Assembly: GCA_963422265.1 (NCBI GenBank)
Contig: OY729416.1
Coordinates: forward strand, 1,719,596 to 1,783,595
Source: Thermodesulfobacteriota bacterium
GTDB lineage: Bacteria > Desulfobacterota_D > UBA1144 > Nemesobacterales > UBA2774
Reading direction: 5' to 3'
DNA: 64,000 nucleotides
In this document: positions 6,132 to 64,000 of the stretch, in pieces
Numbering within the stretch: the stretch's first letter is position 1
How the letters are laid out: each line of letters begins with the position of its first letter
Translations under genes and position numbers: made by a program
The notes under the pieces: generated by a model
Databases searched by the model: none
Seen by the model: only the letters and a program-made list of their open reading frames with translations
What the model was told of the DNA's origin: nothing

Positions 6132-6137
6132 AACTAA

Positions 6138-23675: not shown

Positions 23676-23925
23676 GGAAGGCACATAGACTGACTGGCGT
23701 TTAGGGGAGGACTTCAAGTGCCCCCCGCTGTTACTATCTGTTTTTGAGGTGGAGTTTTAATACCCTGTTCATCGTTCGTCATTACTGCGTTCGTCATTAC
23801 TGCGGGGGGGGCGGGAACGGCAAAAGCACCCTTACCCCTGCTCTCTCCCTGGTTCGACAAGCTCACCAACCGAGGGAGAGGGTGAAAAGACGAGGTAGAA
23901 GTAACAGAAACTAAAGGGACGCTCC

Positions 23926-24372: not shown

Positions 24373-24387
24373 AAGGTAGCGAAGGTC

Positions 24388-45260: not shown

Positions 45261-45319
45261 TGGATCATAGTTCAGGGTTGCATTTGATTCTTCGTTACGC
45301 TACATTTACAATCCTTGTT

Positions 45320-49138: not shown

Positions 49139-49493
49139 ATGAGGGGCTATGATTGGAAGGATAAGGAACAAATCCCCCTGTATCCCCCTTTTCTAAAGGG
49201 GGAGAAGATGAGGAAGAACCCTCACCCTGCGTCCCTCTCCCAGAGGGGGAAAGGATGTCTGATTTGTAGGATTGAGTGAGGGGTTATGATGGAAAGGATA
49301 AGGAACAAATCCCCCTGTGTCCTCCTTTTCTAAAGGGGGAGAAGATAAGGGAGTTCCTCACCCCGACCCTCTCCCAGGGGGAGAAGGGGAAAGGGCGTCT
49401 GAATTTGTGATTTGTAGGATTGAGTGAGGGGCTGTGATTTGGGTAGTATTAGAGTATTTAAAGGAACATATAATACGAAGAAAGGAGGATATT

Positions 49494-50114
49494 ATGTATG
49501 ATGAGAAGTATAGTAGTAAGGGATTTTACCCCACCCCGAAATTTAGCCTATTAAGCGCGTTAGTGCTGGTATTAGTTAGTTTTATGATTGTTGGTGGTTG
49601 TGGAGGTGGGGGGAGTAGTTCAGATGGCATCGAGGATAATAATACTCCCAAGCCTACTACGGCGGATGATACTAAGCTAGAGAAAAGTCCCACTCCGGCG
49701 GCGGATGAGACTAATCTAGATGATAAGATTTCCGATGAACTTCCTCCCTCGGATCCTACTCGCTCTTACGGCACCTGTGATGAAAGGAGCATAAACTTGG
49801 CGCACTTACGCGGGAAAGGGAAAGGTTATAAGCCTTGGAAATGTGACAACAGTGAATTTCTATCTCTCAGATTTTATGATTCTGCTGAGTGGGGTGAACG
49901 CAATAGAACTTTTATCGCACTCGAGCAAGATCAAACCAAATTGTATGGATACTTTACACTAAAGAATTGTAATCTCTCTGTTGATTTTTGGGATGAAGGG
50001 GTAGATGACTGGGAAGCGGAGATACTATCTCTTGATGCTCAAAAAATGGTTCTGATGTATAAGGGTACGGATAAAATAGAGCATTGCTCATCAGGATTGA
50101 ATGATGGGCAATGA
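49494..50114 (+). CDS. Lipoprotein family paralog 3 (Pro/Thr/acidic stalk)
   Basis: Same RBS and signal peptide; shared C-terminal domain. Confidence 0.85.
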   Translation: MYDEKYSSKGFYPTPKFSLLSALVLVLVSFMIVGGCGGGGSSSDGIEDNNTPKPTTADDTKLEKSPTPAADETNLDDKISDELPPSDPTRSYGTCDERSINLAHLRGKGKGYKPWKCDNSEFLSLRFYDSAEWGERNRTFIALEQDQTKLYGYFTLKNCNLSVDFWDEGVDDWEAEILSLDAQKMVLMYKGTDKIEHCSSGLNDGQ

Positions 50115-50690
50115 TTGGGAGGAGAAAGAACAAATCCCCCTGTATCTCCCTTTTCTAAAGGGGGAGAAGATGAGGAAGTACTCTCACCCTGCGTCCTTCT
50201 CCCTCTGGGAGAGGGGGATACAGGGCGTCTGAATTTGTGATTTGTAGGATTGAATGGTGGGCTGTGATTTGGAGGAGAAAGATCAAATCCCCCTAAATCC
50301 CCCTTTTCTAAAGGGGGAATGTGTGAGGAAGGGTTCACGTTTGCCTACTCCCTGGTTGGTGAGCCTGCCGGACCATTTCTGGATTCCCGATAGAATTGGG
50401 AATAACTGGGGTGTGGTGTAGGGGCGACCCTTGTAGTCGTCCAAAGGCGTGAGGGCAATGGGTAACTACAAGGATTTACCCCTACGAAAAGATGGTGTGG
50501 GTAGGAATCCAGAGGGTGTGAGAGATAAGGGATGATTGATCTTCCCTGATGTTCTATCAAATCCCCCTAAATCCCCCTTTTCTAAAGGGGGAATGTGTGC
50601 GGAAGGGTTCACATTCCTCGTTCCCCTCAAAATGGGTGTCAAGGTTAACCACGCATGTCCCCAGCTTGATTGGGGAAGGGTTACCTCTAC
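50095..50690 (+). repeat. Composite repeat cluster
   Basis: Same modules; similar blocks at 48070-48270 and 49140-49440. Confidence 0.88.
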
Positions 50691-50726
50691 GGCTACGGCG
50701 GATAGGCGCACGATGCCGCACATAAA

Positions 50727-51884
50727 TTATAATGACACTTTGGGGTGGATTATTTTAATTAAATCTACGGCTTTATCTATTTCTTCGGTGGTGTTTTCAA
50801 CGGAAAAGCTAAACCTCACGCTTGAGTAAGCCTCTTCTTTGGAGAGACCCATGGCGCAAAGCACGTAGGACGGGGCTGTTTCAAAATTAGTGCAGGCTGA
50901 GCTTTGAGAGCATCTAACACCTGCCTGATCTAGCTCTGCAACTAGCTTTTTTCCATCTACTCCGCTAAATGATAAGTTAGTCGTGTTGCATACCCTGCGT
51001 TTGACGTCTCCGTTTACCTTGGCGCCGGGGATGGAGTCTAGCACCATCGCCTCGAATCTATCGCGAAGGCTCTTCATCAGGGAAATGAATTCGGCTAGTC
51101 GGTTGTTCCTTATCTCAGCGGCTTTTCCCATACCAGCTACGCCGGGAACGTTTTCGGTGCCCGGGCGAAACCCTTCTTCCTGAAACCCGCCGAACATAAT
51201 CGGCGTTAGCAAGAACCTCTCCTTAGAGTAAATAGCGCCTACGCCCTGGGGCGAGTGAAACTTGTGCCCTGTTAGGGATAAAAAATCAATAGGAGCGTCT
51301 TGGACATTCATATCTATCTTGCCGACTGCCTGAGCCGCGTCCGTATGCAGGACGACACCCCTTGAGCGACATATACACCCTATCTCGTCTATAGGCTGGA
51401 CTATGCCGGTCTCGTTATTTACCCAACCGACGGAAACAAGGTCTGTATTCTCGTTTATCTCTTTTTCAAGACTCTCAATATCCAAACGACCCTTTGAATC
51501 GACGCCAATCGTCTTAACTTGCACCCCGTTTAGGCTTAGGTAGCTACACATTTTTTGTATTGAGGAATGCTCAACGGTCGTAGTGATGATCTTGACGTCC
51601 TTAGCACCTGACGTCCGTAAACGCCCGCCGCATGCGGAGTAAAAAGCCATGTTGTTGGATTCGGTTCCTGAGCTAGTAAAGGTTATTTTGTCAGGTGGGA
51701 CGCCCAAGAGGCTCGCTAGGCGTCTCCTTGCATTTTCAAGGGTCAGGCGACCGCGCGCTCCCGCTCTGTGCGCGCTTGAAGGATTGCCAAACTCCTCTCT
51801 CATCGTCCTTAGCGCCTCTTCTTTCACCTCTGGCAGCGCTGTGGTCGTTGCGTTGTTGTCAAAGTATATTTCTTTGTCATTCAT
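50727..51884 (-). CDS. Cysteine desulfurase (IscS/NifS type)
   Basis: YFDNNATT, GNPSS.H, HTDAAQ, GHKFH (PLP lysine), R.GTEN, SSAC. Confidence 0.93.
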   Translation of the reverse strand: MNDKEIYFDNNATTTALPEVKEEALRTMREEFGNPSSAHRAGARGRLTLENARRRLASLLGVPPDKITFTSSGTESNNMAFYSACGGRLRTSGAKDVKIITTTVEHSSIQKMCSYLSLNGVQVKTIGVDSKGRLDIESLEKEINENTDLVSVGWVNNETGIVQPIDEIGCICRSRGVVLHTDAAQAVGKIDMNVQDAPIDFLSLTGHKFHSPQGVGAIYSKERFLLTPIMFGGFQEEGFRPGTENVPGVAGMGKAAEIRNNRLAEFISLMKSLRDRFEAMVLDSIPGAKVNGDVKRRVCNTTNLSFSGVDGKKLVAELDQAGVRCSQSSACTNFETAPSYVLCAMGLSKEEAYSSVRFSFSVENTTEEIDKAVDLIKIIHPKVSL

Positions 51885-51899
51885 AGGATAAGTCTCTAA

Positions 51900-52350
51900 A
51901 GGTAACCAATGTGGCTACCCTCTTTCAACAAGTTCCCTTCGGCAGGCTCACCAACCAGGGAGTAGGGAAACGTGAACCCTTCCTCACACAATCCCCCTTT
52001 AGAAAAGGGGGATACAGGGGGATTTGATAGAACATAAGGGAAGATCAATCATCCCTTATCTCCCCATACCCTCTGGATTCCTACCCTCTCCATCTTTTCG
52101 TAGAGGTAACCCTTGTGGTTACCCATTGCCCTCACGCCTTTGGGCGACTACAAGGGTCGCCCCTACAAACAAAAAGAAAACCCACCCTAACCCTCCTTTA
52201 CAAAAGGAGGGAAATATCCTTTACTATCCTCTGAGCTTGCCGAAGCATAGTCGCCCATCCGTGTAATAAACTCCCCGTCATTCCCACCCTTGCCTGTTCC
52301 CGTGATCTCCTGCTTAATACGTGCAGGGAAGTGCTCTCGCAGGAAGAATG
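51900..52350 (-). repeat. Composite repeat cluster (reverse orientation)
   Basis: Reverse complement of the 50340-50620 type block. Confidence 0.88.
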
Positions 52351-52360
52351 GGAGAGAACC

Positions 52361-53116
52361 CTACTTACGCTTGCCGAATATCCAGGCGATGCGACCTATT
52401 ATTTTTAATTCGTGTTCAATTATGTCGCGTCCCAATATCTTATCCTCAGTCATAGGGCTGTCTGATTTAATTAAAATCCCGTCGGGGTGGTCTTCTAGCC
52501 TCTTGACGCTGAAGCCCTCGTAGGTTCTATAAATCAGATACAGCTCGTTATCCACAAAGTCAACATCGTTAAAATCGACGCCTACGTAGTCGCCGTCGTC
52601 CAGAGTCGGATACATAGAATGCCCCCTTAGCTGAAAAGCATCTCGATACCCGCCTACTAGCTCCGCTGGGAACGTCTTGATCTCAAGTGGCTTATAGGAT
52701 GGCATTTGCTCTTGGATGAAGAATGCGTTACCCAAACCTGCGTGGTCGTGCACTTTAACTTCGACTCCTTTCGCCTCTTCACCGCCCCTGTCTGCCAGTA
52801 TCTTTCTGGCGCGCCCCAATTTGCTCTTGGAGATTCTACCGCTATCTATCTCTTCCTGTCGTCCTTTGCCTTCCTGTTGTTCCTCCCTTAGGAATATCTC
52901 GCCTTCGCCGTAACGCAGCCACCTGGGATTTACAGCGAACTCACTCTCAATCTTTTCCAGCGTCTTATTATAAGGCTGGGTTATACCAGTCTCCCAATTG
53001 TAAATAGTGGTCAAAGAGCTACTGCCTACCCCCTCTGAAAACTGCTCCTGCGTAAGGTTAAGTTCTTCCCTTAATTGCTTCAACCTTATATGTAAATGTT
53101 CATACTTGATAGCCAT
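52361..53116 (-). CDS. CI-like phage repressor (XRE HTH plus S24 peptidase)
   Basis: RLKQLREELNLTQEQF...WETG...VNPRWL..GEG; GHSMYPTL.DGD (Ser), VKRL (Lys), AG cleavage-site motif in HAGLG. Confidence 0.9.
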   Translation of the reverse strand: MAIKYEHLHIRLKQLREELNLTQEQFSEGVGSSSLTTIYNWETGITQPYNKTLEKIESEFAVNPRWLRYGEGEIFLREEQQEGKGRQEEIDSGRISKSKLGRARKILADRGGEEAKGVEVKVHDHAGLGNAFFIQEQMPSYKPLEIKTFPAELVGGYRDAFQLRGHSMYPTLDDGDYVGVDFNDVDFVDNELYLIYRTYEGFSVKRLEDHPDGILIKSDSPMTEDKILGRDIIEHELKIIGRIAWIFGKRK

Positions 53117-53131
53117 TATCCTGTAAAAATA

Positions 53132-53182
53132 TTCAATCTTGGCTACAAACTCCTTGACAACCTTCAATCTTGAGGATATGAT
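53132..53182 (+). promoter_or_regulatory. Divergent phage-type promoter with two operator-like boxes
   Basis: TTGACA(53154)-17 nt-TATGAT(53177); TTCAATCTTG at 53132 and 53163, the second in the spacer and forming TCAA-N2-TTGA. Confidence 0.75.
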
Positions 53183-53269
53183 TGCTTATGTGGGAATAGC
53201 TGCGACGTCCGATACCCATACTAGTAATGAAGATATTAGATTTATTGGCAATTTGCAAGGGATACGGCG

Positions 53270-54150
53270 TCCGTCATTCCTGCGGAAGTAGGAATTTAGG
53301 GGTAAGGGAATGTCTGAACTGTGATTTTTAGGATTAAACGATGAACTTATGATTGAAAGGATAAAGAACAAATCATCCTTAGTCTAAAAGGGGAAAAGTA
53401 GGGGTAACCCTTTAAGGTGCAAGGGAGATGGGTAACCACAAGGATTACCCCTACGAAAAGTAAGGGATTTGTCGGTTGCGTTTTGCCCTTCGGCAGGTTC
53501 AGGGGTTAGGCAAAGGATATTCCCCTCCTTTTGTAAAGGAGGGTTAGGGTGGATTTTTTTTTGTTTGTAGGGGGTAGTGCTAGCGATGTCCTGAACTTGT
53601 TGATGTGGGGAGATAAGGGATGGTTGATCTTCCCTGATATTCTATCAAATCCCCCTGTATCCCCCTTTGTCTAAAGGGGGAGAAGGAGAAATTTCCCTCC
53701 TTTTGTAAAGGAGAGTTAGGGTGGATTTTTTTTTGTTTGTAGGGGCGGTGCTAGCGATGTCCTGAACTTGTTGAAGGGGGGGGGATAAGGGAGAGTTGAT
53801 CTTCCCTGATATTCTATCAAATCCCCCTGTATCCCCCTTTGTCTAAAGGGGGAGAAGGAGAAATTTCCCTCCTTTCATAAAGGAGGGTTAGGGTGGATTT
53901 TTTTTGTTTGTAGGGGTAGTGCTAGCGATGTCCTGAACTTGTTGAAGGGGGGGGATAAGGGAGGGGTTGATCTTCCCTGATGTTCTATCAAATCCCCCTG
54001 TATCCCCCCCTTTACTAAAGGGGGAATGTGTGCGGAAGGGATCACGTTTCCCTACTCCCTGGTTGGTGAGCCTGCCGAGGAGAACTTGTTGAAGGGTGGT
54101 CGCCCAAAGGTATGAAGGCAATGGGTAACCACAAGGATTATCCCTACGAA
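53270..54150 (+). repeat. Repeat cluster between repressor and replication gene
   Basis: About three ~175-180 bp units plus flanking modules. Confidence 0.9.
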
Positions 54151-54170
54151 ATAATAAAAGGAGAAAAAAC

Positions 54171-55343
54171 ATGAGATATCAAAAGATAGAATCGCACATC
54201 TGGTTTGACGAGAAGTTTACGGGCTTGAGCCATTCAGCGCAGCTCCTGTTTCTTTACGTATTAACCTCGCCTCACGGTAACCTGGCAGGCATATACGTCC
54301 TCAAAAAGGGCTATGCGTGCGACGATATGAAGACCTTGCCCGAAGACTTTGAGAAGGACTTGGAAGAATTATCGTCAAAGGAGCTGATTCGCTATGACAA
54401 AGCGACGCAAGTGATATGGATAAAGAATTTTCTCAAGCACAATCCCCTTGAGAATAGGAATCAAAAAATATCAGCGATACGCCGCATAAGTTCTTTGCCA
54501 AAGAGCAATCTGTTAGAGGAATTTCTACACTGCAATAAAGAATATTTTGAGGGTTTCTCTGATCCCATCTTAAATACTGAGGAGGAGTCTTGCGATTGTC
54601 AATCTAAAGGGAAGCATGGAGATAGTGATGTGGACGGTGTTTCTACGGGTTCATCAAACCCTTTACCAAACCCTTCCAAAAGGGTTACTAAGGGGTTTGC
54701 CAAACCAGGAACAGGAACAAGAACAGGAACAGACACAGACACAGACAATCAACTCACCCTTAACAAGACCCGTAGCCTAGAAACTACCAGGGGAGCTTTG
54801 TCCAAAACCGCGAAAAATGGGGTAAGTGGAGAAAGAAAAGATTTTTCTCGTAATGGAAAACATGTCTCTGCGGGTATTAAGCAGGAGATTGACTCAGAGT
54901 CCGTTGCCAGCACCTCTTCTAAGTGGGGAAAGGAAGTCTTCCAATCGTTTAGAAACGCTATTTACCGTAGAAGACTCTTTGAGCTTTACGATAACCTCAA
55001 AGAGATTAAGTCTATAAAAGACCTTGTAGAAGAAGGTGCGTATAGGGCTTTGAAGGACGTAGCGGTAAACAGGACGACGGAACTAGAACGACGGGGATTA
55101 AGTTTTGGGCCAGTGACTCTAACGGTGATGTCTAAAAGAATCAAAAGAGAGTTCGCATACGACAACGTGCCGAGTGATGAGGAGAAGGCAAGGAACTTTT
55201 ACGTTCGTGAGCTGTGCGATTTGACGGCGGAGAGTGTTTTTCAGTGGCCCCGCACCGCGCCACTTACAGGCAGAATTCGCATCTCTGCCACCGATGCCCA
55301 ACCTGGAGATGTGTATCGTCCACCCCCCGCTTTAAGGGGGTAA
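54171..55343 (+). CDS. Phage-type replication initiator (replisome-organiser-like)
   Basis: IW.DEKF..LS....LLFLY.LT.PH.N..G.Y winged-helix N-terminus; I..F.KHN; GTGTRTGTDTDTD linker; AAGGAG RBS. Confidence 0.75.
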   Translation: MRYQKIESHIWFDEKFTGLSHSAQLLFLYVLTSPHGNLAGIYVLKKGYACDDMKTLPEDFEKDLEELSSKELIRYDKATQVIWIKNFLKHNPLENRNQKISAIRRISSLPKSNLLEEFLHCNKEYFEGFSDPILNTEEESCDCQSKGKHGDSDVDGVSTGSSNPLPNPSKRVTKGFAKPGTGTRTGTDTDTDNQLTLNKTRSLETTRGALSKTAKNGVSGERKDFSRNGKHVSAGIKQEIDSESVASTSSKWGKEVFQSFRNAIYRRRLFELYDNLKEIKSIKDLVEEGAYRALKDVAVNRTTELERRGLSFGPVTLTVMSKRIKREFAYDNVPSDEEKARNFYVRELCDLTAESVFQWPRTAPLTGRIRISATDAQPGDVYRPPPALRG

Positions 55344-55581
55344 GGAAGGGGTGAGCGTTCCCCGCTTCCCATTCTGGATTCTTGCTTGCGCAGGAATGAC
55401 GAGAGGGACCCTCTCCCTGGTTCGGCGGCTCGGCGCACCTGTTGAAGGATGGTCGCCCTGAGGTGCAAGGGAGATGGGTAAGATGGGTAATCACAAGATT
55501 TATCCCTACGAAAAGATAGAAAAGGAGGGAATGACGAGGAGTAGGAGACCATAAGGTCGCCACGAAAAAGGAGGAGATAAA

Positions 55582-56157
55582 ATGACAATAAACGCACAGC
55601 AAAGACAAAGAATATATCGCTGTATAGAAGAAGCACTGCCTTTCTATCATCGTTGGAAACGTGCTCGGCGTATAGCATCTACAAGGGCGACAAAACAAGC
55701 GGCTTCCCACTATTCGTCATCAGGGCGAGCTATGCGCCTTGGGCAGTTACCCGCCGCCTCTTTGGCAGACGAACGAGCAGAGCCGCCTGCTCGTAACGTG
55801 TATCTGCAAGTGCTCGAGCCAGTGATTGAGGGATACCTATATGGCAGATGGGGAGTGGAACAGGACGTAATAGATCTATGGCTGGATGGATTGGATGATT
55901 TGCGGATTCTAAAGTTTTGCAAGACGTTGGACCCTAATCTAACGCTAAAAGACGTCCGCGTATGGATTTACGGAGACGGCGAGCAATACGGTTTGTTAAA
56001 CACCATGTGCGAGGCGTTTATGGCGGATGCGGATTTTTGCCCGTTTTGTATGGACCAGAAAGGACGCGGAGATAGATCCGTTAAGCCCAAGCTCTACGGC
56101 ACGACGTGCCCGCACGCCGAGTTGTGGGAGCATCAGAGGTTACAGGAGAGTGCATGA
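55582..56157 (+). CDS. Phage-associated hypothetical protein, possibly Zn-binding
   Basis: AGGAGG RBS; CPFC...CPH; stop overlaps the terminase start (ATGA). Confidence 0.75.
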   Translation: MTINAQQRQRIYRCIEEALPFYHRWKRARRIASTRATKQAASHYSSSGRAMRLGQLPAASLADERAEPPARNVYLQVLEPVIEGYLYGRWGVEQDVIDLWLDGLDDLRILKFCKTLDPNLTLKDVRVWIYGDGEQYGLLNTMCEAFMADADFCPFCMDQKGRGDRSVKPKLYGTTCPHAELWEHQRLQESA

Positions 56158-56954
56158 ACGGGAATCTGAAAACTGTCTCGCCCGTCCGCCCATCCCTTTC
56201 GCCGTTTACCCTTACCGAGTGCTTTATGGAAGCTGTTTGGAAGGACGAGCAGGGCGAGCGGATAACTTGTGCCCCTCATCAGCTTGAGTGGCATAGATTT
56301 ATAAGGGAGCAGAGGGAGAATGGGCGTAAACGTATAGGGATACTTGCTCCATTTAAGCACGGTAAGACGCCCCATATACTGGGCATAACTTTGGCTGGGC
56401 TCTCCGCCAATCCCGAAAAGCGGATCAAAATCGTATGTAATGATGACAACAACGCCATGAAGCGCGTCACCGTGTTAAAGCGATACATTGAGCAGGACGA
56501 AGACTACGGGGCGTTGTTTGCAGATAGGATAAAACCTGATAAATCAGCTAGATGGAACGCCCATGCCATAACTGTAAAGAGAAAGTCTCAGAGCGTAGAA
56601 GGTTCCATAGAGTCGGCGGGCGTCCTCTCAACGGGGATTGGCGGGACTTATGACCAGATGATCTTTGACGACCCATGCGATCTGAACAACTCTACTTTGA
56701 GCGCAGTTAAAAGGGATCACCTAAAAGAACTTGCGAGAAACGTGTGGCTGTCTCGATTGGACAGAGACGGGGAGGTCCTTTACATCGCCACCGCATGGCA
56801 CGCCGAGGATCTGACGCACGAGCTAATTGACAACCCTGAATGGACGTGGCTCATCCAAAGAATTGCCAATGATTTTAGCTCAATTGAGCAGGTGGAGATA
56901 AGAGGCGATATTCGCATAGGGAAGGGAAATATCAATGACCATAATACAGGATAA
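56154..56954 (+). CDS. Terminase large subunit, ATPase domain only
   Basis: PHQ (Q motif), APFKHGKT (Walker A), MIFDDP (Walker B), IATAWH coupling motif. Confidence 0.85.
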   Translation: MNGNLKTVSPVRPSLSPFTLTECFMEAVWKDEQGERITCAPHQLEWHRFIREQRENGRKRIGILAPFKHGKTPHILGITLAGLSANPEKRIKIVCNDDNNAMKRVTVLKRYIEQDEDYGALFADRIKPDKSARWNAHAITVKRKSQSVEGSIESAGVLSTGIGGTYDQMIFDDPCDLNNSTLSAVKRDHLKELARNVWLSRLDRDGEVLYIATAWHAEDLTHELIDNPEWTWLIQRIANDFSSIEQVEIRGDIRIGKGNINDHNTG

Positions 56955-57732
56955 ATTCAGGCAGCTTGAGGTTAAACGCATTCCCTTGTGGGATAGATGG
57001 GGAGAGCGGGAATTGCGCTCTCGCAGAAACGAAATAGGTTCCAAAGCCTTTAACAGAGGCTATCGACACGAGGCTATAGAGCGGGACGAGCTGACGTTTT
57101 CTCACTTCACTAGAATAAAGAAATATGGTGTGGGTCCCGAGATCATCAGCCCTAGCTGGGAACGTTACGCGGGTGTTGACGTATCCTCGTCCTCTCGTCC
57201 GGGAAGCGTAATTTTTACGGGGGCGGTGAGTCCAGGGGGAAAGCGATACCCAAAGGAAATCAGGATTGGCGCATGGACGGCTCCCGAATTCGTTAGGCAA
57301 ATACTCGATTGCTACAATCGCTATCGTCACCAGGTGATATTGGTAGAGAATAACGGCGTGCAGACCATGCTAGTTGATTGGCTCAATGAGAAGGGGGCTC
57401 ATCTGCCAATAGAAGGATACGTTACGGGGGTGCAAAAGATGGATCCCGAGATCGGTCTGCCCTCGCTGGACATAGAGTTTGAGAATGAAAGCTGGGTGCT
57501 CCCGATGGACGTTGTAAAGGGACACGAGGGTAATTGCGGACGGTATTCGCTAGCCGGTGGGGCAATGTGTTCATGGTGTAGGTTTATCAAGGAGTTCGAG
57601 GCGCATCCACAGTATCCGACTACTGACGTCGTCATGGCGACTTGGCTATTCCGCGAGGCGGTCAGGAAATATAGGGGTGCGGGGTTTATCATGGAACAGA
57701 GCCCGATAGAAGAAGGAGTGTTCGAATTTTAG
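56935..57732 (+). CDS. Terminase large subunit, nuclease (RNase H-like) domain
   Basis: PLW.RW...L...IG...F...Y, AGVD.S, ILVENNG.Q, TDVVMA. Confidence 0.8.
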   Translation: MTIIQDKFRQLEVKRIPLWDRWGERELRSRRNEIGSKAFNRGYRHEAIERDELTFSHFTRIKKYGVGPEIISPSWERYAGVDVSSSSRPGSVIFTGAVSPGGKRYPKEIRIGAWTAPEFVRQILDCYNRYRHQVILVENNGVQTMLVDWLNEKGAHLPIEGYVTGVQKMDPEIGLPSLDIEFENESWVLPMDVVKGHEGNCGRYSLAGGAMCSWCRFIKEFEAHPQYPTTDVVMATWLFREAVRKYRGAGFIMEQSPIEEGVFEF

Positions 57733-59840
57733 GGAAGGGATCACGTTTCCCAATGCCTATCAAATCCCCCTATATCCCCCTTTGTCTAAAGGGGGAGAAG
57801 AAGAAATTCCCCTCCTTTTGTAAAGGAGGGAAAGGGTGGATTTTGTTTTTGTTAGTAGGGGTGGTGCTAGCGATATCCTGAACTTGTTGGAGGGGGGAGA
57901 TAAGGGATGATTGATCTTCCCCGATGTTCTATCAAATCCCCCTTTGTCTAAAGGGGGAGTGTATGAGGAATGTTTTCGTTCCTAGATGTTCTATCAAATC
58001 CCCCTGTGTCCCTCTTCGTCTAAAGGGGGAGTATGTAAGGAAGGGGTTCGTTCCCTGATGCCCCGTCAAATCCCCCTGTATCCCCCTTTGTCTAAAGGGG
58101 GAGTATGTAAGGAATGTTTTCGTTCCTAGATGTTCTATCAAATCCCCCTGTATCCCCCTTTGTCTAAAGGGGGAGTATGTAAGGAAGGGATTATGTTCCC
58201 CGATGCCCCGTCAAATCCCCCTGTATCCCCCTTTGTCTAAAGGGGGAGTATGTAAGGAAGGGATTACGTTCCCCGATGTTCTATCAAATCCCCCTAAATC
58301 CCCCTTTTCTAAAGGGGGAGAAGAAGAAATTCCCCTCCTTTTGTAAAGGAGGGAAAGGGTGGATTTTCTTTTTGTTAGTAGGGGTGGTGCTAGTGATGTC
58401 CTGAACTTGTTGGAGGGGGGGATAAGGGAGGGTTGATCTTCCCTGATATTCTATCAAATCCCCCTGTATCCCCCTTTGTCTAAAGGGGGAGTATGTAAGG
58501 AAGGGGTTCGTTCCCCGATGCCCCGTCAAATCCCCCTATATCCCCCTTTTCTAAAGGGGGAGCATATGAGGAATGTTTTCGTTCCTAGATGTTCTATCAA
58601 ATCCCCCTGTCTCCCCCTTTTCTAAAGGGGGAGTATGTAAGGAAGGGGTTCGTTCCCTGATGCCCCGTCAAATCCCCCTATATCCCCCTTTTCTAAAGGG
58701 GGAGTGTATGAGGAATGTTTTCGTTCCTAGATGTTCTATCAAATCCCCCTGTATCCCCCTTTTCTAAAGGGGGAGAAGAAGAAATTCCCTTCCTTTTGTA
58801 AAGGAGGGAAAGGGTGGATTTTGTTTTTGTTAGTAGGGGTGGTGCTAGTGATGTCCTGAACTTGTTGATGTGGGGAGATAAGGGATGATTGATCTTCCCT
58901 GATATTCTATCAAATCCCCCTGTATCCCCCTTTTCTAAAGGGGGAGAAGAAGAAATTCCCTTCCTTTTGTAAAGGAGGGAAAGGGTGGATTTTGTTTTTG
59001 TTAGTAGGGGTGGTGCTAGTGATGTCCTGAACTTGTTGATGTGGGGAGATAAGGGATGATTGATCTTCCCTGATATTCTATCAAATCCCCCTGTATCCCC
59101 CTTTTCTAAAGGGGGAGCATATGAGGAATGTTTTCGTTCCTAGATGTTCTATCAAATCCCCCTGTATCCCCCTTTGTCTAAAGGGGGAGTATGTAAGGAA
59201 GGGGTTCGTTCCCTGATGCCCCGTCAAATCCCCCTATATCCCCCTTTTCTAAAGGGGGAGTGTATGAGGAATGTTTTCGTTCCTAGATGTTCTATCAAAT
59301 CCCCCTATATCCCCCTTTTCTAAAGGGGGAGTATGTAAGGAAGGGGTTCGTTCCCTGATGCCCCGTCAAATCCCCCTATATCCCCCTTTTCTAAAGGGGG
59401 AGCATATGAGGAATGCGTTCGTTCCTAGATGTTCTATCAAATCCCCCTGTATCCCCCTTTTCTAAAGGGGGAGAAGAAGAAATTCCCCTCCTTTTGTAAA
59501 GGAGGGATAGGGTGGATTTTGTTTTTGTTAGTAGGGGTGGTGCTAGCGATGTCCTGAACTTGTTGGAGGGGGGAGATAAGGGATGATTGATCTTCCCCGA
59601 TGTTCTAACAAATCCCCCTGTATTCCCCTTTGTCTAAAGGGGGAGCATATGAGGAATGTTTTCGTTCCTAGATGTTCTATCAAATCCCCCTGTATCCCCC
59701 TTTGTCTAAAGGGGGAGTATGTAAGGAAGGGATTATGTTCCTTGTTCCCCTGGTTGGTGGGACTGCCGAGGAGAACTTGTTGAAGGGTGGTCGCCCAAAG
59801 GCGCGGAGGCAATGGGTAACCACAAGGGTTACCCCTACGA
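57733..59840 (+). repeat. 2.1-kb higher-order repeat array between terminase and tRNA
   Basis: Roughly 20 CCCCCTTT(T/G)TCTAAAGGGGG hairpins; two ~71-bp unit types, mostly alternating, interspersed with ~170-bp units. Confidence 0.93.
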
Positions 59841-59849
59841 AACGCGTAG

Positions 59850-59925
59850 TGGTGGAGCCGAAGGGATTCGAACCCTCGACCTCATGAATGCCATTCATGC
59901 GCTCTCCCAACTGAGCTACGGCCCC
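59850..59925 (-). tRNA. tRNA-Ala (GGC)
   Basis: Minus strand GGGGCCGTAGCTCAGTTGGGAGAGCGCATGAATGGCATTCATGAGGTCGAGGGTTCGAATCCCTTCGGCTCCACCA; 76 nt, encoded CCA. Confidence 0.97.
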
Positions 59926-60117
59926 TCATAAAGTCCAACTATTTTTGAAAACGAATTCCACTATAGGTTAAGACCGATTTAGTTCAAAGTCAAATGGTAT
60001 TAGTGTATATTCCCCTTCTTAAATGCTCTGGATTGTGATTAACGATGATTGAATTATGGGCTATGATCGTTACTGGGATGGGTGCTATTTCTATTTTGTT
60101 TTTTAATTATGCTCTAT

Positions 60118-60159
60118 CATGTAATCTCATAGATCATACATGTAATCTCATAGATCATA
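60118..60159 (+). repeat. 21-bp tandem duplication upstream of hom
   Basis: CATGTAATCTCATAGATCATA twice. Confidence 0.9.
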
Positions 60160-60187
60160 GCTTAGGACTTTACAAGGAGACGGCGGA

Positions 60188-61586
60188 GTGAAATCGAATG
60201 CGAACCTAATCAAAATTGGGTTGATAGGAGCTGGCACCGTAGGATGCGGCGTGATAAAGCTCCTTAGCCGAAATAAGGGCATTATTGAAAAGAGGACCGG
60301 AGTCCGACTCGATCTAAAGAGAATTGCCGATAATGACCTTGAGAGAAAAAGACCTGTAAGGCTTCCTAAAGACAGGATTACTACCGATGCGTTTGAGGTT
60401 ATTCGTGATGAATCAATAGACATAGTGGTAGAGCTTGTAGGGGGGACGACCGTAGCAAGGGATTTCGTCATGGCAGCCATAGATAACGGTAAGCACGTCG
60501 TAACGGCGAATAAAGCCCTTATCGCCCACCATGGCAGAGAAATATTCCAGAGCGCCTTGCAAAAAGGAGTTAGCGTTGGCTTTGAAGCCAGCGTAGGGGG
60601 TGGAATTCCGATAATACGCGCGATGAGGGATGGATACGTCGGAAATAAAGTGCTGTCTATCCATGGAATAATGAATGGCACTTCTAACTACGTATTATCC
60701 AGAATGACTGAGCGGATGGCTTCCGCAAACGCACAAAGCAGGGCACGGGCATCGTCTCGGATTACGCGAGGAGGAGAAAAGTCGGAATTTGAAGAGGTCT
60801 TAAAAGAGGCGCAGCGCAAGGGATACGCCGAAGCCGATCCTTCGTTTGATATCGACGGCGTTGACTCGGCTCATAAACTCTCGATAATGATAATGCTTTC
60901 GTTTGGCGTCTTTCTAGCGTTTGAAGATATTCACGTAGAGGGAATACGTGGGATTACGCCGCTGGACGTTGCGTTTGCCGATGAGCTTGGCTATAGGATA
61001 AAGCTCTTGGCGACCGCAAAGGCTAAGGATAGCGTTCACCCCACGGACAAAGAGGCTTTTGGATAACGTTCCCGAGAGTATAGAAGCCGGCGTATATCCA
61101 ACGTTAATAAAAAAGGGAACGTCGCTCGCCGATGTTTCAGGAGCCTTCAATGCGATTTACCTAGTTGGGGACGCAATTGGTCCGACAATGCTCTATGGTC
61201 TGGGGGCGGGTATGATGCCGACGGCAAGCGCCGTCGTTAGCGATATATCGCGTATCTCCTCTCTATACGATCCAGCTCCAAGGCTACACGTGGACTTCAC
61301 GTCATCTCCGCTAATTAAAATGAGCGAAACGTCTAACAAATACTACTTAAAATTCAATGCTCACGACCGCCCAGGCGTGTTGGGAAAAATCACAGGCAGG
61401 CTGGGTAGGCATGGGATCAGCATCGAGTCGGTGATACAAAAGGGGAGGCATCCCGAAGGTGGTGAGTCCCAATTGTCATTATGACTCACGAGGCTCAAGA
61501 AAAGAAGCTATTATCTGCTCTCGAGCAGATAGATAAATTCCCGGATGTAAGCGCAAATCAACGTTTATAAGAATCGGGAGATTTAA
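60188..61586 (+). CDS. hom: Homoserine dehydrogenase with ACT domain (apparent frameshifts, likely read errors)
   Basis: GAGTVG, TANKA, FEASVGGGIP, NGTSNY, GYAEADP; continues in the next frame with GAG..PTASAV and DRPGVL. Confidence 0.9.
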
Positions 61587-61591
61587 GGAAC

Positions 61592-63037
61592 TTGAAAAAG
61601 AAGATTTTGGTCGTAGATGATGAAGAGAGCATAAGATGGGTGGTTGGCAAGTGTCTTGAAAAAGCGGGTTATTGGTTGGATACGCGGAGAACGGCTCTCA
61701 AGCTATAGAAAGCGCTACTTCGGGCGACTTTTGTTCAGTAATTCTTGATATAACAATGCCTGACGTAAACGGGCTTGAGGTTATGTCGGAGCTGAAAGCC
61801 CGCGATATAGAGATCCCGATTATTATCATTACGGCGCAGAACACGGTTAAAAACGCCATAGATGCTATGAAGCTGGGCGCATACGATTATGTAGCCAAGC
61901 CTTTTGATCTCAATGAGGTAACTATAACGGTGCAAAGGGCTATTGAGAGTTACGAGAATGCAAAGCGGCTAGACCTTTTAAGATGCTCACACAATAGCGC
62001 TGGGGAGCTGAAGCCACCAACCACTCCGATAGTCTGCATTTTATAGTGGGAAGAACTCAACCCATGCTCAATATCTATAAAATGATAGGGCGGGTGGCGG
62101 AAAGAGATATAACGGTGTTGATAACGGGAGAGAGCGGCACGGGGAAGGAACTTGTCGCAAGGGCTATACACTCAAACAGCAAGCGGAAAGATAGAAAAAT
62201 CGTAGCGGTTAATATCGCCGCCATTCTAAGGAGCTTCTTGAAAGTGAGTTGTTTGGCTACGAGAAGGGCGCTTTTACGGGTGCTGGCGGGTTAAGAAGGG
62301 GAAGATTTGAGGAAGCGCATAATGGCACGCTTCATCTGGATGAAATAGGCGATATGCCCGCTGACCTTCAAACTAAAATCCTAAGAATTTTAGAGGAAAG
62401 GCAGTTTTACCGTCTCGGTAGTGAGAAACCTACTTCAGTTGACGTCCGTATAATTGCATCAACTAACAAGAATCTCGAACAAGAGGTGAAGAACGGAAAC
62501 TTTAGGGAAGACCTTTACTACAGACTCAACGCCATAACAATAGAAATTCCCCTTTAAGGGAAAGGCTCGAGGACGTTATTCCACTCGCCCTACATTTTTG
62601 GATAAATACTCCAAAGAGTTGGGTATCAGGAAAAGGCTTATGTCTGAGGATGCCCAACGAGCCCTCCTTAGCTACGACTGGTATGGCAACGTCCGGGAGC
62701 TGGAAAACATGATTAAACGCTTGCTCGTTCTGACGTCCGATAGCGTGATTACGAAAGAGACCTTATTAGATATTGCTCCACCCCTTGAGGGAGGAATAAG
62801 AGGCTCATGTGATTCCTTAGATAAGCTCATAACGAATGAGATTAAACTTTTGTTAGATGGATCGGGAGAGGGTAGCTCAGTGAAAGTTTATGAAGAAATG
62901 ATGAGAAAGGTAGAAAAACCCCTTATTAAGTCGGTGCTCGCCGTTACCAAAGGAAATAAGAAAAAGGCGGCTTCTCTTCTGGCATAAACAGAAACACGCT
63001 TTCCAAGAAGATAGAAGAGTTGGGATTAAGAGAATAG
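61592..63037 (+). CDS. NtrC-family sigma54 response regulator (apparent frameshifts, likely read errors)
   Basis: Pieces in successive frames: KILVVDDE, LDITMP, GESGTGKE, GAFTGA, FREDLYYRLN, W.GNVREL, GINRNTL (Fis HTH). Confidence 0.88.
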
Positions 63038-63039
63038 GG

Positions 63040-64000
63040 AAGGGATGTCTGAACTGTGATTTTATGAGCTATGATTAAAAGAATAAAGGACAAATCCCCC
63101 TTGATTCCCCTTTGTCTAAAGGGGGAGAAGAAGAAATTCCCCTCCTTTTGTAAAGGAGGGAAAGGGTGGATTTTCTTGTTTGTAGGGGTGTGTGCTAGGC
63201 GATGTCCTGAACTTGTTGAAGAGGGGGGGATAAGGGATGGTTGATCTTCCCTGATGTTCTATCAAATCCCCCTGTATCCCCCTTTGTCTAAAGGGGGAAT
63301 GTGTGCGGAAGGGTTTACATTCCTCGTTCCCCTGGTTGGTGGGACTGCCGAGGGGAACTTGTTGAAGGGTGGTCGCCCAAAGGTGTGGTGAGATGTGGGT
63401 AACCACAAGGGTTACCCCTACGAAATGATGGTGTGGGTGATGTGGGAGTATAAGGGATGATTGATCTTCCTGATATTCTATCAAATCCCCCTATATCCCC
63501 TTTTCTAAAGGGGGAGTATGTAAGGAAGGGGTTACGTTCCTCGTTCCCCTGGTTGGTGGGACTGCCGAGGGGAACTTGTTGAAGGATGGTCGCCCTAAGG
63601 TGTGGTAATGTGGGTAACCACAAGGGTTACCCCTACGAAATGATGGAGAGGGTGGGAATGACGAGGGTATGTGGGAGTATAAGGATGATTGATCTTCCCT
63701 GATGTTCTATCAAATCCCCCTTTTCTAAAGGGGGAATGTGTGAGGAAGGGTTCACATTCCTCGTTCCCCTGGTTGGTGGGACTGCCGAGGAGAACTTGTT
63801 GAAGGGTGGTTGCCCTAAGGCTTGAATGTGAGGGTAACCACAAGGGTTACCCTACGAAATGATGGAGAGGGTGGAATGACGAGGGGATGTGGGAGATAAG
63901 GGATGATTGATCTTCCCTGATGTTTTATCAAATCCCCCTGTATCCCCTTTTCTAAAGGGGGAATGTGTGAGGAAGGGTTCATGTTCCTTGTTCCCCTGGT
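63040..64000 (+). repeat. Composite repeat cluster running off the window end
   Basis: Several ~230-bp composite units. Confidence 0.9.

What the first reader, a model, noticed from the sequence alone, without database searches (positions are those of the whole stretch)
52361..59925. Stripped, possibly domesticated phage replication/packaging module beside tRNA-Ala
Seen: intact CI repressor, a near-consensus divergent promoter with operator-like boxes, a replication initiator, one unknown gene and a two-gene terminase, each with an open frame and a plausible RBS. No integrase, cro, helicase loader, portal, capsid or tail genes are present, and the gaps are filled with the host's repeat arrays. 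Known: Bartonella keeps a phage-derived origin (run-off replication) and a gene transfer agent that favours packaging of host-interaction genes. Inference: the intact remainder suggests a retained, SOS-inducible replication and packaging unit (GTA-like or satellite-like) rather than random decay, and diversified surface-protein genes lie just upstream (43-50 kb).
Basis: partly seen in the sequence, partly recalled or inferred. Interest (0 to 1): 0.82.

Follow-up and report, generated by a model that had tools for sequence, protein, structure and literature searches.

The report
Left arm of a rearranged prophage
The flagged genes are the control, replication and DNA-packaging end of an ordinary-looking but immobilised prophage whose head and tail genes lie just past the end of the window, so it is not a stripped-down module.

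Summary
The genes described are real: a CI/LexA-type repressor, a strong rightward promoter, a replication initiator, one unknown gene, two terminase reading frames and tRNA-Ala, with repeat arrays in every gap.

"No portal, capsid or tail genes" is a window-edge artefact. The window is the last 64 kb of a one-contig genome. About 8.5 kb past the terminase, across the contig ends, lie a portal, decoration protein, major capsid protein, a 1,894-aa tape measure and tail-fibre genes, all single-copy and open.

Between the two phage arms sits an ancestral host block (tRNA-Ala, hom, ntrC-like, rnc).

The "two-gene terminase" is one large terminase (TerL) written as an ATPase frame plus a nuclease frame. 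The break is real. A second assembly shares it, and so do many distant relatives, so it is a family trait. This scan has found two-gene terminases before on other DNA.

No integrase, att duplication or lysis gene was found. The capsid gene matched 0 of 40 related genomes and the portal 1 of 40, so this is lineage-specific and not an old domesticated system.

Best reading: a grounded, rearranged, gene-intact prophage. GTA-like or lateral-transduction use is possible but unsupported.

The parts
52361..53116 (-). CI/LexA-type repressor. 251 aa from the ATG at 53116; 268 aa if the TTG at 53167 is used.
   Evidence: HTH_3 plus Peptidase_S24, and phrog_4 at 5e-34. The sequence shows GHSMYP (Ser), VKRL (Lys) and an Ala-Gly upstream; naming these as the cleavage parts is from recalled LexA/CI knowledge. 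It is the only S24-family match in the genome. The 251-aa form is also on record, letter for letter, from a 38,637-bp contig of another assembly.
53154..53182 (+). Rightward sigma-70-like promoter, flanked by two TTCAATCTTG boxes (53132-53141 and 53163-53172).
   Evidence: It matches 11 of 12 consensus positions. Function is inferred. About 1 kb of repeat array separates it from the replication gene.
53330..54130 (.). Repeat array filling the repressor/replication gap. No cro-like gene is present.
   Evidence: 172-nt period, 2.9 copies, at 53519-54025. The sequence was read. Depth is 10-30 times that of unique DNA.
54171..55343 (+). Replication initiator / DnaD-like replisome organiser (390 aa). 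A candidate internal origin lies at about 54648-54740.
   Evidence: phrog_1701 at 1e-24, phrog_3171, phrog_8064 and phrog_1408. Inverted and direct CAAACCC/GGGTTTG repeats are followed by a GT-rich low-complexity tract. The origin is inference only.
55582..56157 (+). Unknown gene just upstream of the terminase (191 aa; the conserved part starts at about residue 51).
   Evidence: No Pfam or PHROG match. A homologue (32% over 178 aa, E 3e-26) lies upstream of the TerL of a contiguous prophage in the family relative G021. The Atlas and word-index searches added nothing. A role as small terminase is a guess.
56154..56954 (+). TerL, ATPase half (266 aa).
   Evidence: phrog_38 positions 276-471; phrog_4758, a 243-position 'terminase large subunit' profile. 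The Walker-type columns are invariant. It ends at the same linker point as 10 short relatives.
56935..57732 (+). TerL, nuclease half (265 aa). It is in the +1 frame, overlaps the ATPase frame by 20 nt, and its ATG follows GGGAAGGGA.
   Evidence: phrog_38 positions 484-638. The two frames are both open only across 56920-56954. 64 of the 150 best library representatives are stand-alone nuclease proteins of 310 aa or less.
57733..59849 (.). 2.1 kb of repeat arrays where relatives have the portal gene.
   Evidence: Arrays of 71/72-, 142- and 171-nt period. In 6 viral contigs a portal of the same family follows TerL.
59850..59925 (-). tRNA-Ala(GGC), the first gene of the ancestral host block.
   Evidence: ARAGORN. 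It has the same position and orientation next to hom in 7 of 7 relatives' loci examined. No partial copy lies at any phage border.
60188..62987 (+). Host genes hom and an ntrC-like sigma-54 activator. Both read as broken in this assembly.
   Evidence: Pfam matches. Both are single-copy. Hom is an intact 466-aa protein in a second assembly. The contig of run X1 differs by 0 letters and 9 gaps, which points to indel errors in this assembly. The block hom-X-ntrC-rnc is conserved in 7 of 10 relatives' loci.
63071..64000 (.). Repeat array running to the contig end. Beyond it, outside the window, lie rnc (G000:C1:1006-1701, -) and the structural arm (C1:1791 to about 20024, perhaps to 25209).
   Evidence: Array. 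Outside the window: portal 2217-3644 (PF05136, 9e-27), cement protein 5905-6378, capsid 6417-7610 (PF25209, 1e-21), tape measure 11179-16863 (PF10145, 9e-23) and tail fibre 17961-20024 (PF13550).

Best explanation
The flagged block is the left (control, replication, packaging) arm of one lineage-specific, siphovirus-type temperate prophage. Its right arm is a small sigma-70-region-4 HTH gene, then portal, decoration protein, major capsid protein, tape measure and tail fibres. That arm lies about 8.5 kb downstream across the contig ends.

The two arms are separated by an ancestral host block: tRNA-Ala, hom, ntrC-like and rnc. Repeat arrays occupy every junction and many intergenic gaps.

The element has no integrase, no att duplication and no recognised lysis gene. 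It most likely can no longer excise; it is a 'grounded' prophage. Its genes are nevertheless open and well kept in two strains.

The terminase is a natural two-chain enzyme. The ATPase and nuclease halves are translated from two overlapping frames, the second from its own ATG and ribosome-binding site. This architecture is inherited across many relatives.

Inferred working: the repressor holds the rightward promoter off. RecA-stimulated self-cleavage would release transcription of the replication and packaging genes. Whether particles are still made is unknown.
For: Structural arm
- Portal, cement protein, capsid, tape measure and tail-fibre genes are at G000:C1:2217-20024.
- All 8 phage proteins queried (repressor, replication protein, unknown gene, both TerL halves, portal, the 377-aa protein, capsid) are single-copy in the genome.

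Contig ends abut
- The genome is one contig, 99.4% complete.
- The ends share a 20-nt overlap.
- The ntrC-like gene at the contig's end and rnc at its start are neighbours in 7 of 10 relatives' loci.

One phage origin for both arms
- The closest fused TerL (57% and 48% identity to the two halves) and the closest portal (40%) are on the same foreign contig, L006.
- A contiguous prophage in family relative G021 holds homologues of the left-arm unknown gene. It also holds homologues of three right-arm genes: the HTH gene (34%), a 182-aa tail gene (40%) and a 174-aa gene (62%). All are in the same order.
- A portal follows TerL in 6 viral contigs.

Host block is ancestral
- tRNA-Ala is next to hom in 7 of 7 loci.
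- The order hom-X-ntrC-rnc holds in 7 of 10 loci.

Grounded
- The genome's only 3 tyrosine recombinases lie at 492, 624 and 1166 kb. There are 0 serine recombinases.
- No tRNA fragment lies at any phage border.

Kept intact
- In a second assembly, 20 of 2,133 head and packaging residues differ (0.94%). In 8 host proteins, 70 of 3,127 differ (2.24%), or 31 of 2,443 (1.27%) without the subtilase.
- The tape measure stays open in both strains (1,894 and 1,946 aa) despite 141 substitutions and 94 gap columns, in a mosaic pattern.

Split TerL is real
- The contig of run X1 is identical over 54081-57782, with 0 letters and 0 gaps different.
- The second assembly has the same 266-aa and 265-aa halves, with 2 residue changes in each.

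Split TerL is a family trait
- 10 short ATPase-only relatives (51-70% identical) end at the same linker point.
- 64 of the 150 best nuclease-half representatives are 310 aa or less, and 55 of these start with M.
- On a tree, the split state needs 27 changes against 43.6 +/- 3.1 in 500 label shuffles (minimum 36). Pure split clades hold up to 12 representatives.
- Viral contig L021 is split at the same place and in the same +1 frame.

Binding of the two halves
- The complex model supports binding: score 0.79, best of 3 controls 0.42. That mark was reached by 58 of 80 solved complexes and 2 of 110 mismatched pairs. The runs agree in at least 88% of contacts, and the partner's pLDDT is at least 76.
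- This pass may only reflect likeness to solved one-chain terminases.
Against: - The order left arm, host block, right arm rests on one assembly. The second assembly has all these genes with the same longest-contig length on record (389,999 bp), which I take to be one contig, but I could not see their order there.
- Short-read contigs break at the repeats, so no read-level bridge from TerL to the portal was seen.
- This assembly carries indel errors elsewhere (hom, ntrC).
- Intact genes, a mosaic tape measure and the absence of decay would also fit an element that is still active or selected.
- 'No integrase' and 'no lysis gene' are negative results from Pfam and PHROGs. Several ORFs remain unassigned.
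- Strain divergence (about 0.5-1%) is too small to measure selection, and I had no DNA of the second assembly for dN/dS.
- A +1 ribosomal frameshift that yields a fused terminase is not excluded.
Confidence: 0.62

Rival explanations
1. Host-retained particle system (GTA-like, or a permanent lateral-transduction engine). On SOS the repressor cleaves itself. The replication protein amplifies the locus in place. The two-chain terminase starts packaging near the unknown gene and TerL and runs rightward through the host block and beyond. The particles come from the right arm.
For: - No integrase is present.
- Every recognised particle gene is open in two strains, and head and packaging proteins are no more diverged than host proteins.
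- The arms are transcribed in the same direction, with host genes between the packaging and head genes.
- The tape measure is mosaic in-frame between strains.
- recA is present, and this repressor is the only S24 protein in the genome.
Against: - It is not conserved in relatives. The capsid matched 0 of 40 and the portal 1 of 40, where it is broken. TerL relatives in 4 of 40 relatives are only 24-27% identical.
- It keeps a repressor and a replication gene, which known GTAs lack (recalled).
- Contig depth over the replication-to-terminase stretch equals that of the flanks (X1: 35.7 against 32.8-37.2; X6: 44.8 against 39.7-45).
- No lysis genes were found.
Confidence: 0.15
2. Two independent prophage remnants that happen to be complementary: one left of tRNA-Ala that lost its structural genes, and one right of rnc that lost its early genes.
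For: - tRNA-Ala is a classic integration target, and the left arm abuts its 3' side.
- The two arms have different best matches for most genes. Only TerL and the portal share a source contig.
Against: - There is no duplicated gene between the arms, and every phage gene is single-copy.
- Together the arms make exactly one canonical gene order in one orientation.
- A single contiguous prophage in G021 has homologues of genes from both arms.
- The closest TerL and the closest portal both come from L006.
Confidence: 0.1
3. A still viable temperate phage that uses an unrecognised recombinase and carries the host block and the repeats as cargo.
For: - The repressor-to-tail-fibre span is 31.7 kb, or 36.8 kb to the fn3 protein. 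This is a normal siphovirus size (coordinates).
- All core genes are open.
- Several ORFs are unassigned.
Against: - The 'cargo' consists of the host's only copies of tRNA-Ala(GGC), hom, ntrC-like and rnc, in the family-wide order.
- No att repeat is present.
- No viral contig resembling the whole element was found in IMG/VR or in the phage records.
Confidence: 0.06
4. The block order is an assembly artefact caused by the repeat arrays; the prophage is really contiguous.
For: - Arrays lie at every junction.
- This assembly has indel errors.
- Short-read contigs end in the arrays.
Against: - The order tRNA-Ala, hom, ntrC, rnc matches the relatives' synteny across the contig ends.
- The arrays are at most about 2.1 kb long, which long reads span.
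- A second assembly carries all these genes with the same longest-contig length on record.
Confidence: 0.07

Closest known systems
Lambda-like (siphovirus-type) temperate prophages and their grounded or cryptic derivatives (for example E. coli Rac, DLP12, e14; recalled)
   Same: - S24 self-cleaving repressor facing a rightward promoter.
- A replication initiator with a possible internal origin.
- Terminase, lambda-family portal (PF05136), decoration protein, HK97-like capsid, long tape measure and a J-like fibre, all in the canonical order and in one orientation.
- Loss of the integrase.
   Different: - An ancestral host block of about 5.9 kb sits between terminase and portal.
- Repeat arrays fill the gaps.
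- No cro, helicase or lysis gene is recognised.
- Unlike typical cryptic prophages, no recognised core gene is broken.
Two-gene large terminases (PHROG 4758, a short 'terminase large subunit' family). Earlier notes of this scan also name cluster AY Arthrobacter phages; I did not check that.
   Same: - The ATPase and nuclease domains are separate reading frames, cut at the interdomain linker.
- Both halves keep their invariant motif columns.
- The state is inherited within clades.
   Different: - Here the two frames overlap by 20 nt with nothing between them.
- Other cases hold inserts of 0.2-14 kb: L054, L058 and L060, and earlier scan notes.
- The nearest fused relative (P0001) is about as close as the split ones.
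RcGTA-type gene transfer agents and Bartonella BaGTA with run-off replication
   Same: - No integrase.
- A phage head-tail gene set resident in the chromosome.
- Phage genes interleaved with host genes.
   Different: - It was not found in 40 family and order relatives.
- It keeps a phage repressor and a replication gene.
- It has a full-size tape measure and capsid.
- No homology to GTA genes was tested or seen.
- No depth excess was seen.
Lateral transduction by late-excising prophages (S. aureus 80-alpha, Salmonella P22; recalled)
   Same: The geometry would allow replication in place and one-directional packaging from the integrated state into neighbouring host DNA.
   Different: Those phages excise and are infectious. 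Here excision functions are missing, and no packaging or replication signal was observed.

Membership tests
Temperate tailed prophage (lambda-like layout) | Self-cleaving CI/LexA-type repressor | tested here: met
   HTH_3 plus Peptidase_S24, and phrog_4 at 5e-34. The Ser (GHSMYP), Lys (VKRL) and Ala-Gly motifs were read.
Temperate tailed prophage (lambda-like layout) | Terminase, portal, major capsid, tape measure and tail genes | tested here: met
   TerL halves. Portal PF05136, capsid PF25209, tape measure PF10145 and tail PF13550 are at G000:C1:2217-20024, outside the window.
Temperate tailed prophage (lambda-like layout) | Integrase or excisionase, and att repeats at the ends | tested here: not met
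   PF00589 matches only at 492, 624 and 1166 kb. PF00239 has no match. No tRNA-Ala fragment or shared unique repeat lies at the borders.
Temperate tailed prophage (lambda-like layout) | Contiguous phage DNA | tested here: not met
   The host block tRNA-Ala, hom, ntrC-like, rnc lies between TerL and the portal.
Temperate tailed prophage (lambda-like layout) | Lysis genes | tested here: inconclusive
   No endolysin or holin family was found among the ORFs scanned with Pfam and PHROGs. Several ORFs remain unassigned.
Gene transfer agent (RcGTA-like domesticated particle system) | Vertical conservation across species of a lineage at a fixed locus | tested here: not met
   The capsid matched 0 of 40 relatives. 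The portal matched 1 of 40, and that copy has stops. The hom-rnc loci of 10 relatives hold no homologue of these phage genes. No same-genus genome was available.
Gene transfer agent (RcGTA-like domesticated particle system) | Absence of phage replication and lysogeny control genes | tested here: not met
   The repressor and the replication initiator are present and open.
Gene transfer agent (RcGTA-like domesticated particle system) | Particles that package host DNA | not testable with these tools
   This needs particle-fraction sequencing.
Phage satellite (PICI / P4-like) | Lacks its own capsid and tail genes and depends on a helper phage | tested here: not met
   A full single-copy structural arm lies 8.5 kb away, and no other prophage is in the genome.
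Two-ORF (split) large terminase | The ATPase frame stops and the nuclease frame starts at the interdomain linker, each with conserved catalytic columns | tested here: met
   Alignments A3 and A5. The two frames are both open only across 56920-56954. The ATG at 56935 follows GGGAAGGGA.
Two-ORF (split) large terminase | The split is real and heritable, not an error or fresh damage | tested here: met
   An identical contig in run X1. The same halves in a second assembly. 10 short relatives. 64 of 150 representatives are short. The split state is clustered on the tree: 27 changes against 43.6 +/- 3.1.
Two-ORF (split) large terminase | Two separate polypeptides that assemble, as opposed to a frameshifted fusion | tested here: inconclusive
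   The complex model scored 0.79 against a best control of 0.42, but this may reflect likeness to solved one-chain enzymes. No protein data exist.

The most novel reading that the evidence does not exclude
An integrase-less prophage kept by its host as a permanent SOS-triggered lateral-transduction or GTA-like device. It would replicate in place from an origin inside the replication gene. The two-chain terminase would then package one-directionally through the embedded host block and the downstream chromosome into particles made by the right arm.
Probability: 0.12. Interest if true: 0.7.

Novelty: new member of a known kind. Interest (0 to 1): 0.3.

Why it matters
- The main lesson is one of method. 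A "stripped" phage module at a window or contig end can be half of a prophage that continues across the ends of a circular genome.
- It adds an example of a prophage that is immobilised, rearranged around host genes and invaded by host repeats, yet fully open-reading. Such an element is the raw material from which domesticated particle systems could arise.
- It adds another clean case, with adjacent overlapping frames and no insert, to the growing set of large terminases encoded as two chains. This makes one question testable: does the packaging motor need its ATPase and nuclease covalently joined?

Tried and rejected
- Known phages. tblastn of the ATPase half against 50,697 phage records gave 2 weak hits (23-27% identity). 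The nuclease half gave none.
- Unknown gene. Pfam, PHROGs, the protein Atlas (best score 0.77, below its useful range) and the word-index search (only its own cluster) gave no function.
- More DNA of split relatives. The metagenome scan returned 3 contigs of about 1.6 kb. A viral-contig scan with the ATPase alignment returned none.
- Distant integrase. I first suspected that the integrase at 624 kb (62% identical to L006's) was a displaced part of this prophage. Of the neighbours scanned, those with a family match are restriction-enzyme-like, AAA ATPase and TPR genes, and none is a phage gene. I dropped the idea.
- Frame break as decay. I first read the terminase frame break as decay or an assembly error, because hom and ntrC next door are also broken. 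I rejected this.
- Programmed +1 frameshift. No prfB-like slippery or stop context was seen in the 35-nt overlap. It is not excluded.
- RNA evidence: no RNA holder listed.
- Raw Hi-C reads of run X12: only 4 reads were laid, so they gave no information.
- The joints have short sides (22-42 nt) inside repeats. I treated them as repeat cross-matches, not as excision.
- dN/dS could not be computed. Only a partial list of substitutions was shown ('194 more are not shown'), and I had no DNA of the second assembly.
- Literature. Searches found no paper describing adjacent ATPase and nuclease terminase genes. (six phrase variants) matched 5 papers, of which 3 were listed. I saw only their titles and abstract starts: one on Staphylococcus phages and a paper and preprint on jumbo gut phages.
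- PMC10732093 (passages read) concerns translational bypassing of 7-10-nt inserts in Streptomyces phage terminase genes, which is a different thing.
- Supplementary files of papers were not consulted.

Full report
WHAT IS AT THE COORDINATES

The window is the last 64 kb of a single 1,783,595-bp contig. Between 52361 and 59925 I find the following.
- A repressor with HTH_3 and Peptidase_S24 domains, matching phrog_4 at 5e-34. Its sequence shows GHSMYP and VKRL with an Ala-Gly upstream. From recalled LexA/CI biochemistry, these are the serine, the lysine and the cleavage site of self-cleaving repressors.
- A rightward promoter match scoring 11 of 12 at 53154-53182. Promoter-like sites in the region as a whole are not above chance: 8 found against 8.4 +/- 2.8 in shuffles. 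Two TTCAATCTTG boxes flank the -35 hexamer.
- A 390-aa protein whose N-terminal part matches DnaD-like and replication-initiator PHROGs.
- A 191-aa protein with no family match.
- Two terminase reading frames.
- tRNA-Ala(GGC) on the minus strand.

The gaps are tandem arrays with periods of 71/72, 142, 171 and 172 nt. The other ORFs of 50 aa or more that I read there are translations of those repeat units.

THE TERMINASE

The two frames are not a small and a large subunit.
- The first frame matches positions 276-471 of a large-terminase (TerL) profile, which is the ATPase. The second matches positions 484-638, which is the nuclease.
- Fused relatives of 537 and 551 aa exist at 55-57% identity. 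In the alignment, the window's break falls in the variable linker between the two domains.
- The two frames are both open only across 56920-56954. The second has an ATG at 56935, 7-8 nt after GGGAAGGGA. It overlaps the first frame's stop by 20 nt and lies in the +1 frame.

Because hom and an ntrC-like gene next door also read as broken, I first suspected decay or assembly error. Three results reject that for the terminase.
- A contig built from run X1 is identical to the window over 54081-57782, with 0 letters and 0 gaps different. The X1 contig over tRNA-Ala to ntrC has 0 letter differences but 9 gaps.
- A second assembly has the same halves of 266 and 265 aa, with 2 residue changes in each. 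Its Hom is an intact 466-aa protein. The three hom differences I could read all sit at short single-base runs. So hom and ntrC are most likely indel errors of this assembly, and the terminase break is not.
- The split is a family trait.
  - The 10 nearest short relatives of the ATPase half are 214-286 aa long and 51-70% identical. All end at the same point, just after a conserved FSxIEQ stretch.
  - Of the 150 best representatives found with the nuclease half, 64 are 310 aa or less, 76 are 430 aa or more, and 10 lie between. Of the 64 short ones, 55 start with M, a few residues before the conserved PLW motif.
  - On a FastTree of 144 nuclease domains (7 rows dropped for covering too little of the domain), 60 were labelled split, 72 fused and 12 unlabelled. 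The split state needs 27 changes against 43.6 +/- 3.1 in 500 label shuffles (minimum 36). Pure split clades hold up to 12 representatives. Related sequences share labels, so this shows inheritance and is not a probability.
  - I classified 89 DNA rows: 80 viral loci, 8 earlier loci and the window. Two pairs of rows are the same viral contig. Of these, 70 are fused, 9 are split and 10 show no ATPase half nearby.
  - Of the 9 split rows, 6 (the window, L021, L043, L050, L051, L052) have adjacent or overlapping frames, all shifted by +1. One has a 191-nt gap. Two hold inserts of 1.5-2.1 kb. In L021 the first frame's TGA is followed, one base later, by the second frame's GTG.

A model of the two halves together supports binding.
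- The score is 0.79, against 0.42 for the best of 3 controls.
- That mark was reached by 58 of 80 solved complexes and 2 of 110 mismatched pairs.
- The runs agree in at least 88% of contacts, and the partner's pLDDT is at least 76.
- The end of the ATPase chain pairs with the start of the nuclease chain. One-chain terminases have solved structures, so this pass may only show likeness.

I favour two separately started chains over a +1 ribosomal frameshift, but I cannot exclude the latter.

THE 'MISSING' STRUCTURAL GENES

ORFs from the foreign contig with the closest TerL (L006) were compared with the whole genome. Its portal matched G000:C1:2403-3632 at 40% identity. That is the start of the same contig. 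Reading C1:1-30000 gives the following.

| Position in C1 | Strand | Gene | Evidence |
|---|---|---|---|
| 1006-1701 | - | rnc | Pfam |
| 1791-2099 | + | 102-aa sigma-70 region-4 HTH protein | Pfam |
| 2217-3644 | + | lambda-family portal | PF05136, 9e-27 |
| 3641-4774 | + | 377-aa protein | no family |
| 5905-6378 | + | cement/decoration protein | Pfam |
| 6417-7610 | + | major capsid protein | PF25209, 1e-21 |
| 11179-16863 | + | tape measure, 1,894 aa | PF10145, 9e-23 |
| 16907-17824 | + | 305-aa protein | no family |
| 17961-20024 | + | J-like tail fibre, 687 aa | PF13550 + fn3 |
| 21889-25209 | + | 1,106-aa fn3/He_PIG protein | may or may not belong |

- All 8 phage proteins queried are single-copy.
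- If the contig ends abut, the portal starts 8,484 nt after the terminase stop.
- That the ends abut is supported three ways. The genome is one contig and 99.4% complete. The ends share a 20-nt overlap. The ntrC-like gene at the contig's end and rnc at its start are neighbours in 7 of 10 relatives' loci.

THE HOST BLOCK

- In 7 of 10 loci from family and order relatives the order is tRNA-Ala(GGC), hom, a 363-aa gene X, ntrC-like, rnc. No homologue of these phage genes was found there.
- In this genome the same block is kept, about 5.9 kb from the tRNA to rnc. X has moved to C1:37053-38141. The two phage arms lie on either side of the block.
- hom, ntrC-like and rnc are single-copy here, so they are the host's own genes and not phage cargo.
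- Every junction carries the repeat family. Of the 145 copies of its palindromic core in the genome, 121 lie within about 185 kb spanning the contig ends.
- I infer that recombination between these arrays moved either the host block or the structural arm. At least two events are needed, and their order cannot be recovered.

ONE PHAGE OR TWO

Evidence for a single phage origin:
- The closest fused TerL and the closest portal come from the same foreign contig.
- A portal of this family follows TerL in 6 viral contigs.
- A contiguous prophage in family relative G021 holds a homologue of the left-arm unknown gene just upstream of its own TerL (32% over 178 aa, E 3e-26). About 6-17 kb further on it holds homologues of three right-arm genes: the HTH gene (34%), a 182-aa gene (40%) and a 174-aa gene (62%).

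Together the two arms make one canonical gene order in one orientation, with no duplicated gene.

STATE OF THE ELEMENT

Missing functions:
- The genome's only tyrosine recombinases are at 492, 624 and 1166 kb. It has no serine recombinase.
- The recombinase at 624 kb is 62% identical to L006's integrase. The neighbours scanned match restriction-like, AAA ATPase and TPR families, and none is a phage gene.
- No fragment of tRNA-Ala and no unique direct repeat marks any border.
- No cro-like gene follows the promoter.
- No lysis family was recognised.
- Arrays also sit inside the right arm, at C1:4780-5800 and 7980-8690.

Presence in other samples:
- The left arm, the part laid, is present in contigs of the three runs from three studies that gave usable contigs (X1, X5, X6).
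- Letter differences there are of the same order as in the host flanks. For X6 they are 35 in 3,073 nt over replication gene to terminase, against 47 in 3,297 nt over tRNA to ntrC.

Comparison with the second assembly:

| Proteins compared | Residues differing |
|---|---|
| Head and packaging proteins | 20 of 2,133 (0.94%) |
| 8 host proteins | 70 of 3,127 (2.24%) |
| 7 host proteins, without the subtilase | 31 of 2,443 (1.27%) |

- The tape measure differs by 141 substitutions and 94 gap columns, concentrated in residues 1-100, 500-600 and 1600-1900. It is open in both strains. This looks like allele exchange, not decay.

Other observations:
- Contig depth over the replication-to-terminase stretch equals the flanks (X1: 35.7 against 32.8-37.2). 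This is a contig-wide mean and a coarse measure.
- Among 40 family and order relatives the capsid protein matched none, and the portal matched one, where it is broken by stops. The ATPase half found only 24-27% identical terminases in 4 of 40 relatives. No same-genus genome was available.

READING

The block is the left arm of one lineage-specific prophage that has lost its means of excision and has been rearranged around host genes, but is otherwise intact.
- Shown: gene identities, single copy, the split terminase as a real and inherited feature, the ancestral host block, absence from the relatives searched, and strain-level conservation.
- Inferred: abutting contig ends, a single phage origin, repeat-mediated rearrangement, SOS control (recA is present; this repressor is the only S24-family match in the genome), an origin inside the replication gene, and two-chain terminase assembly.
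- A GTA-like or lateral-transduction role is geometrically possible and would explain why nothing is broken. It fails the cross-species conservation test as far as that could be applied, and it has no positive signal.

COMPARISON WITH WHAT IS KNOWN

- The layout is that of lambda-like siphoviruses. The loss of the integrase is that of grounded or cryptic prophages.
- PHROG 4758 is a 243-position 'terminase large subunit' family that the ATPase half matches. Short ATPase-only terminase genes are therefore already in sequenced phages.
- My literature searches found no paper describing adjacent ATPase and nuclease genes. PMC10732093 (passages read) treats a different phenomenon.
- Earlier notes of this scan describe two-gene terminases on at least six other genomes, and integrase-less particle gene sets in other phyla. 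They also note frameshifts elsewhere in this assembly and call the organism Dadabacteria-like. I did not test that label.

LIMITS

- There is no read-level bridge between the arms.
- I had no DNA of the second assembly.
- No same-genus genome was available.
- There are no RNA or particle data.
- The substitution list was shown only in part.
- Supplementary files of papers were not consulted.

Noticed in passing
whole genome; window 49000-64000 and G000:C1:1-30000: The palindromic repeat core (CCCCCTTT, 2-8 nt, AAAGGGGG) is very unevenly spread. Of its 145 copies, 121 lie in about 185 kb spanning the contig ends (1.65 Mb to the end, plus the first 50 kb). Only 24 lie in the other 1.6 Mb.
   Followed up: partly
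window 60188-62987: hom (3 breaks) and an ntrC-like sigma-54 activator (at least 4 pieces) read as broken. Hom is an intact 466-aa protein in a second assembly. A run's contig differs from the window only by 9 gaps. The hom differences sit at short single-base runs. These are probably consensus indel errors of this assembly.
   Followed up: yes
G000:C1:37053-38141: A 363-aa gene lies between hom and ntrC in 7 of 10 relatives' loci. Here it sits about 35 kb away, beyond the phage structural arm, next to a gene (C1:36176-36787) that in G003 lies on the tRNA side of hom. This is a sign of repeated local rearrangement.
   Followed up: no
window 52361-53116: The prophage repressor is the only Peptidase_S24 (LexA/CI/UmuD) match in the genome. 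11 of the 30 relatives searched also have none. Whether the host has any LexA-type SOS regulator is open.
   Followed up: partly
G000:C1:11179-16863: The tape-measure protein is mosaic between two strains. There are 0 differences in residues 900-1500. Residues 1600-1900 carry 95 substitutions plus in-frame indels (1,894 against 1,946 aa).
   Followed up: partly
window 45260-47314: The S8 subtilase-family protein is the most strain-variable of the 8 host proteins compared. It differs at 39 of 684 residues, and its length is 684, 700 and 719 aa in three assemblies.
   Followed up: no
G000:C1:623903-625057 (L026 9903-11057): A 384-aa tyrosine integrase is 62% identical to the integrase of foreign contig L006, which also holds the closest TerL and portal. 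It sits beside an HSDR_N-like gene and AAA ATPases, about 620 kb from the prophage.
   Followed up: partly
L006 (foreign MAG contig), 4987-12857: The closest fused TerL sits between a ribonucleotide reductase and a DnaN clamp gene. The portal lies 3.5 kb upstream, before a D12 methyltransferase. This is another case where terminase and portal are not adjacent and cellular-type genes lie between them.
   Followed up: no
L054 and L060 (viral contigs): The terminase halves are separated by inserts of 2.1 kb and 1.5 kb. In L058 they are separated by a 191-nt gap, with a different frame offset.
   Followed up: no
G028:C36:21197-22322: The only portal homologue among 40 relatives is in three pieces with stop codons. 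It is a decayed remnant.
   Followed up: no
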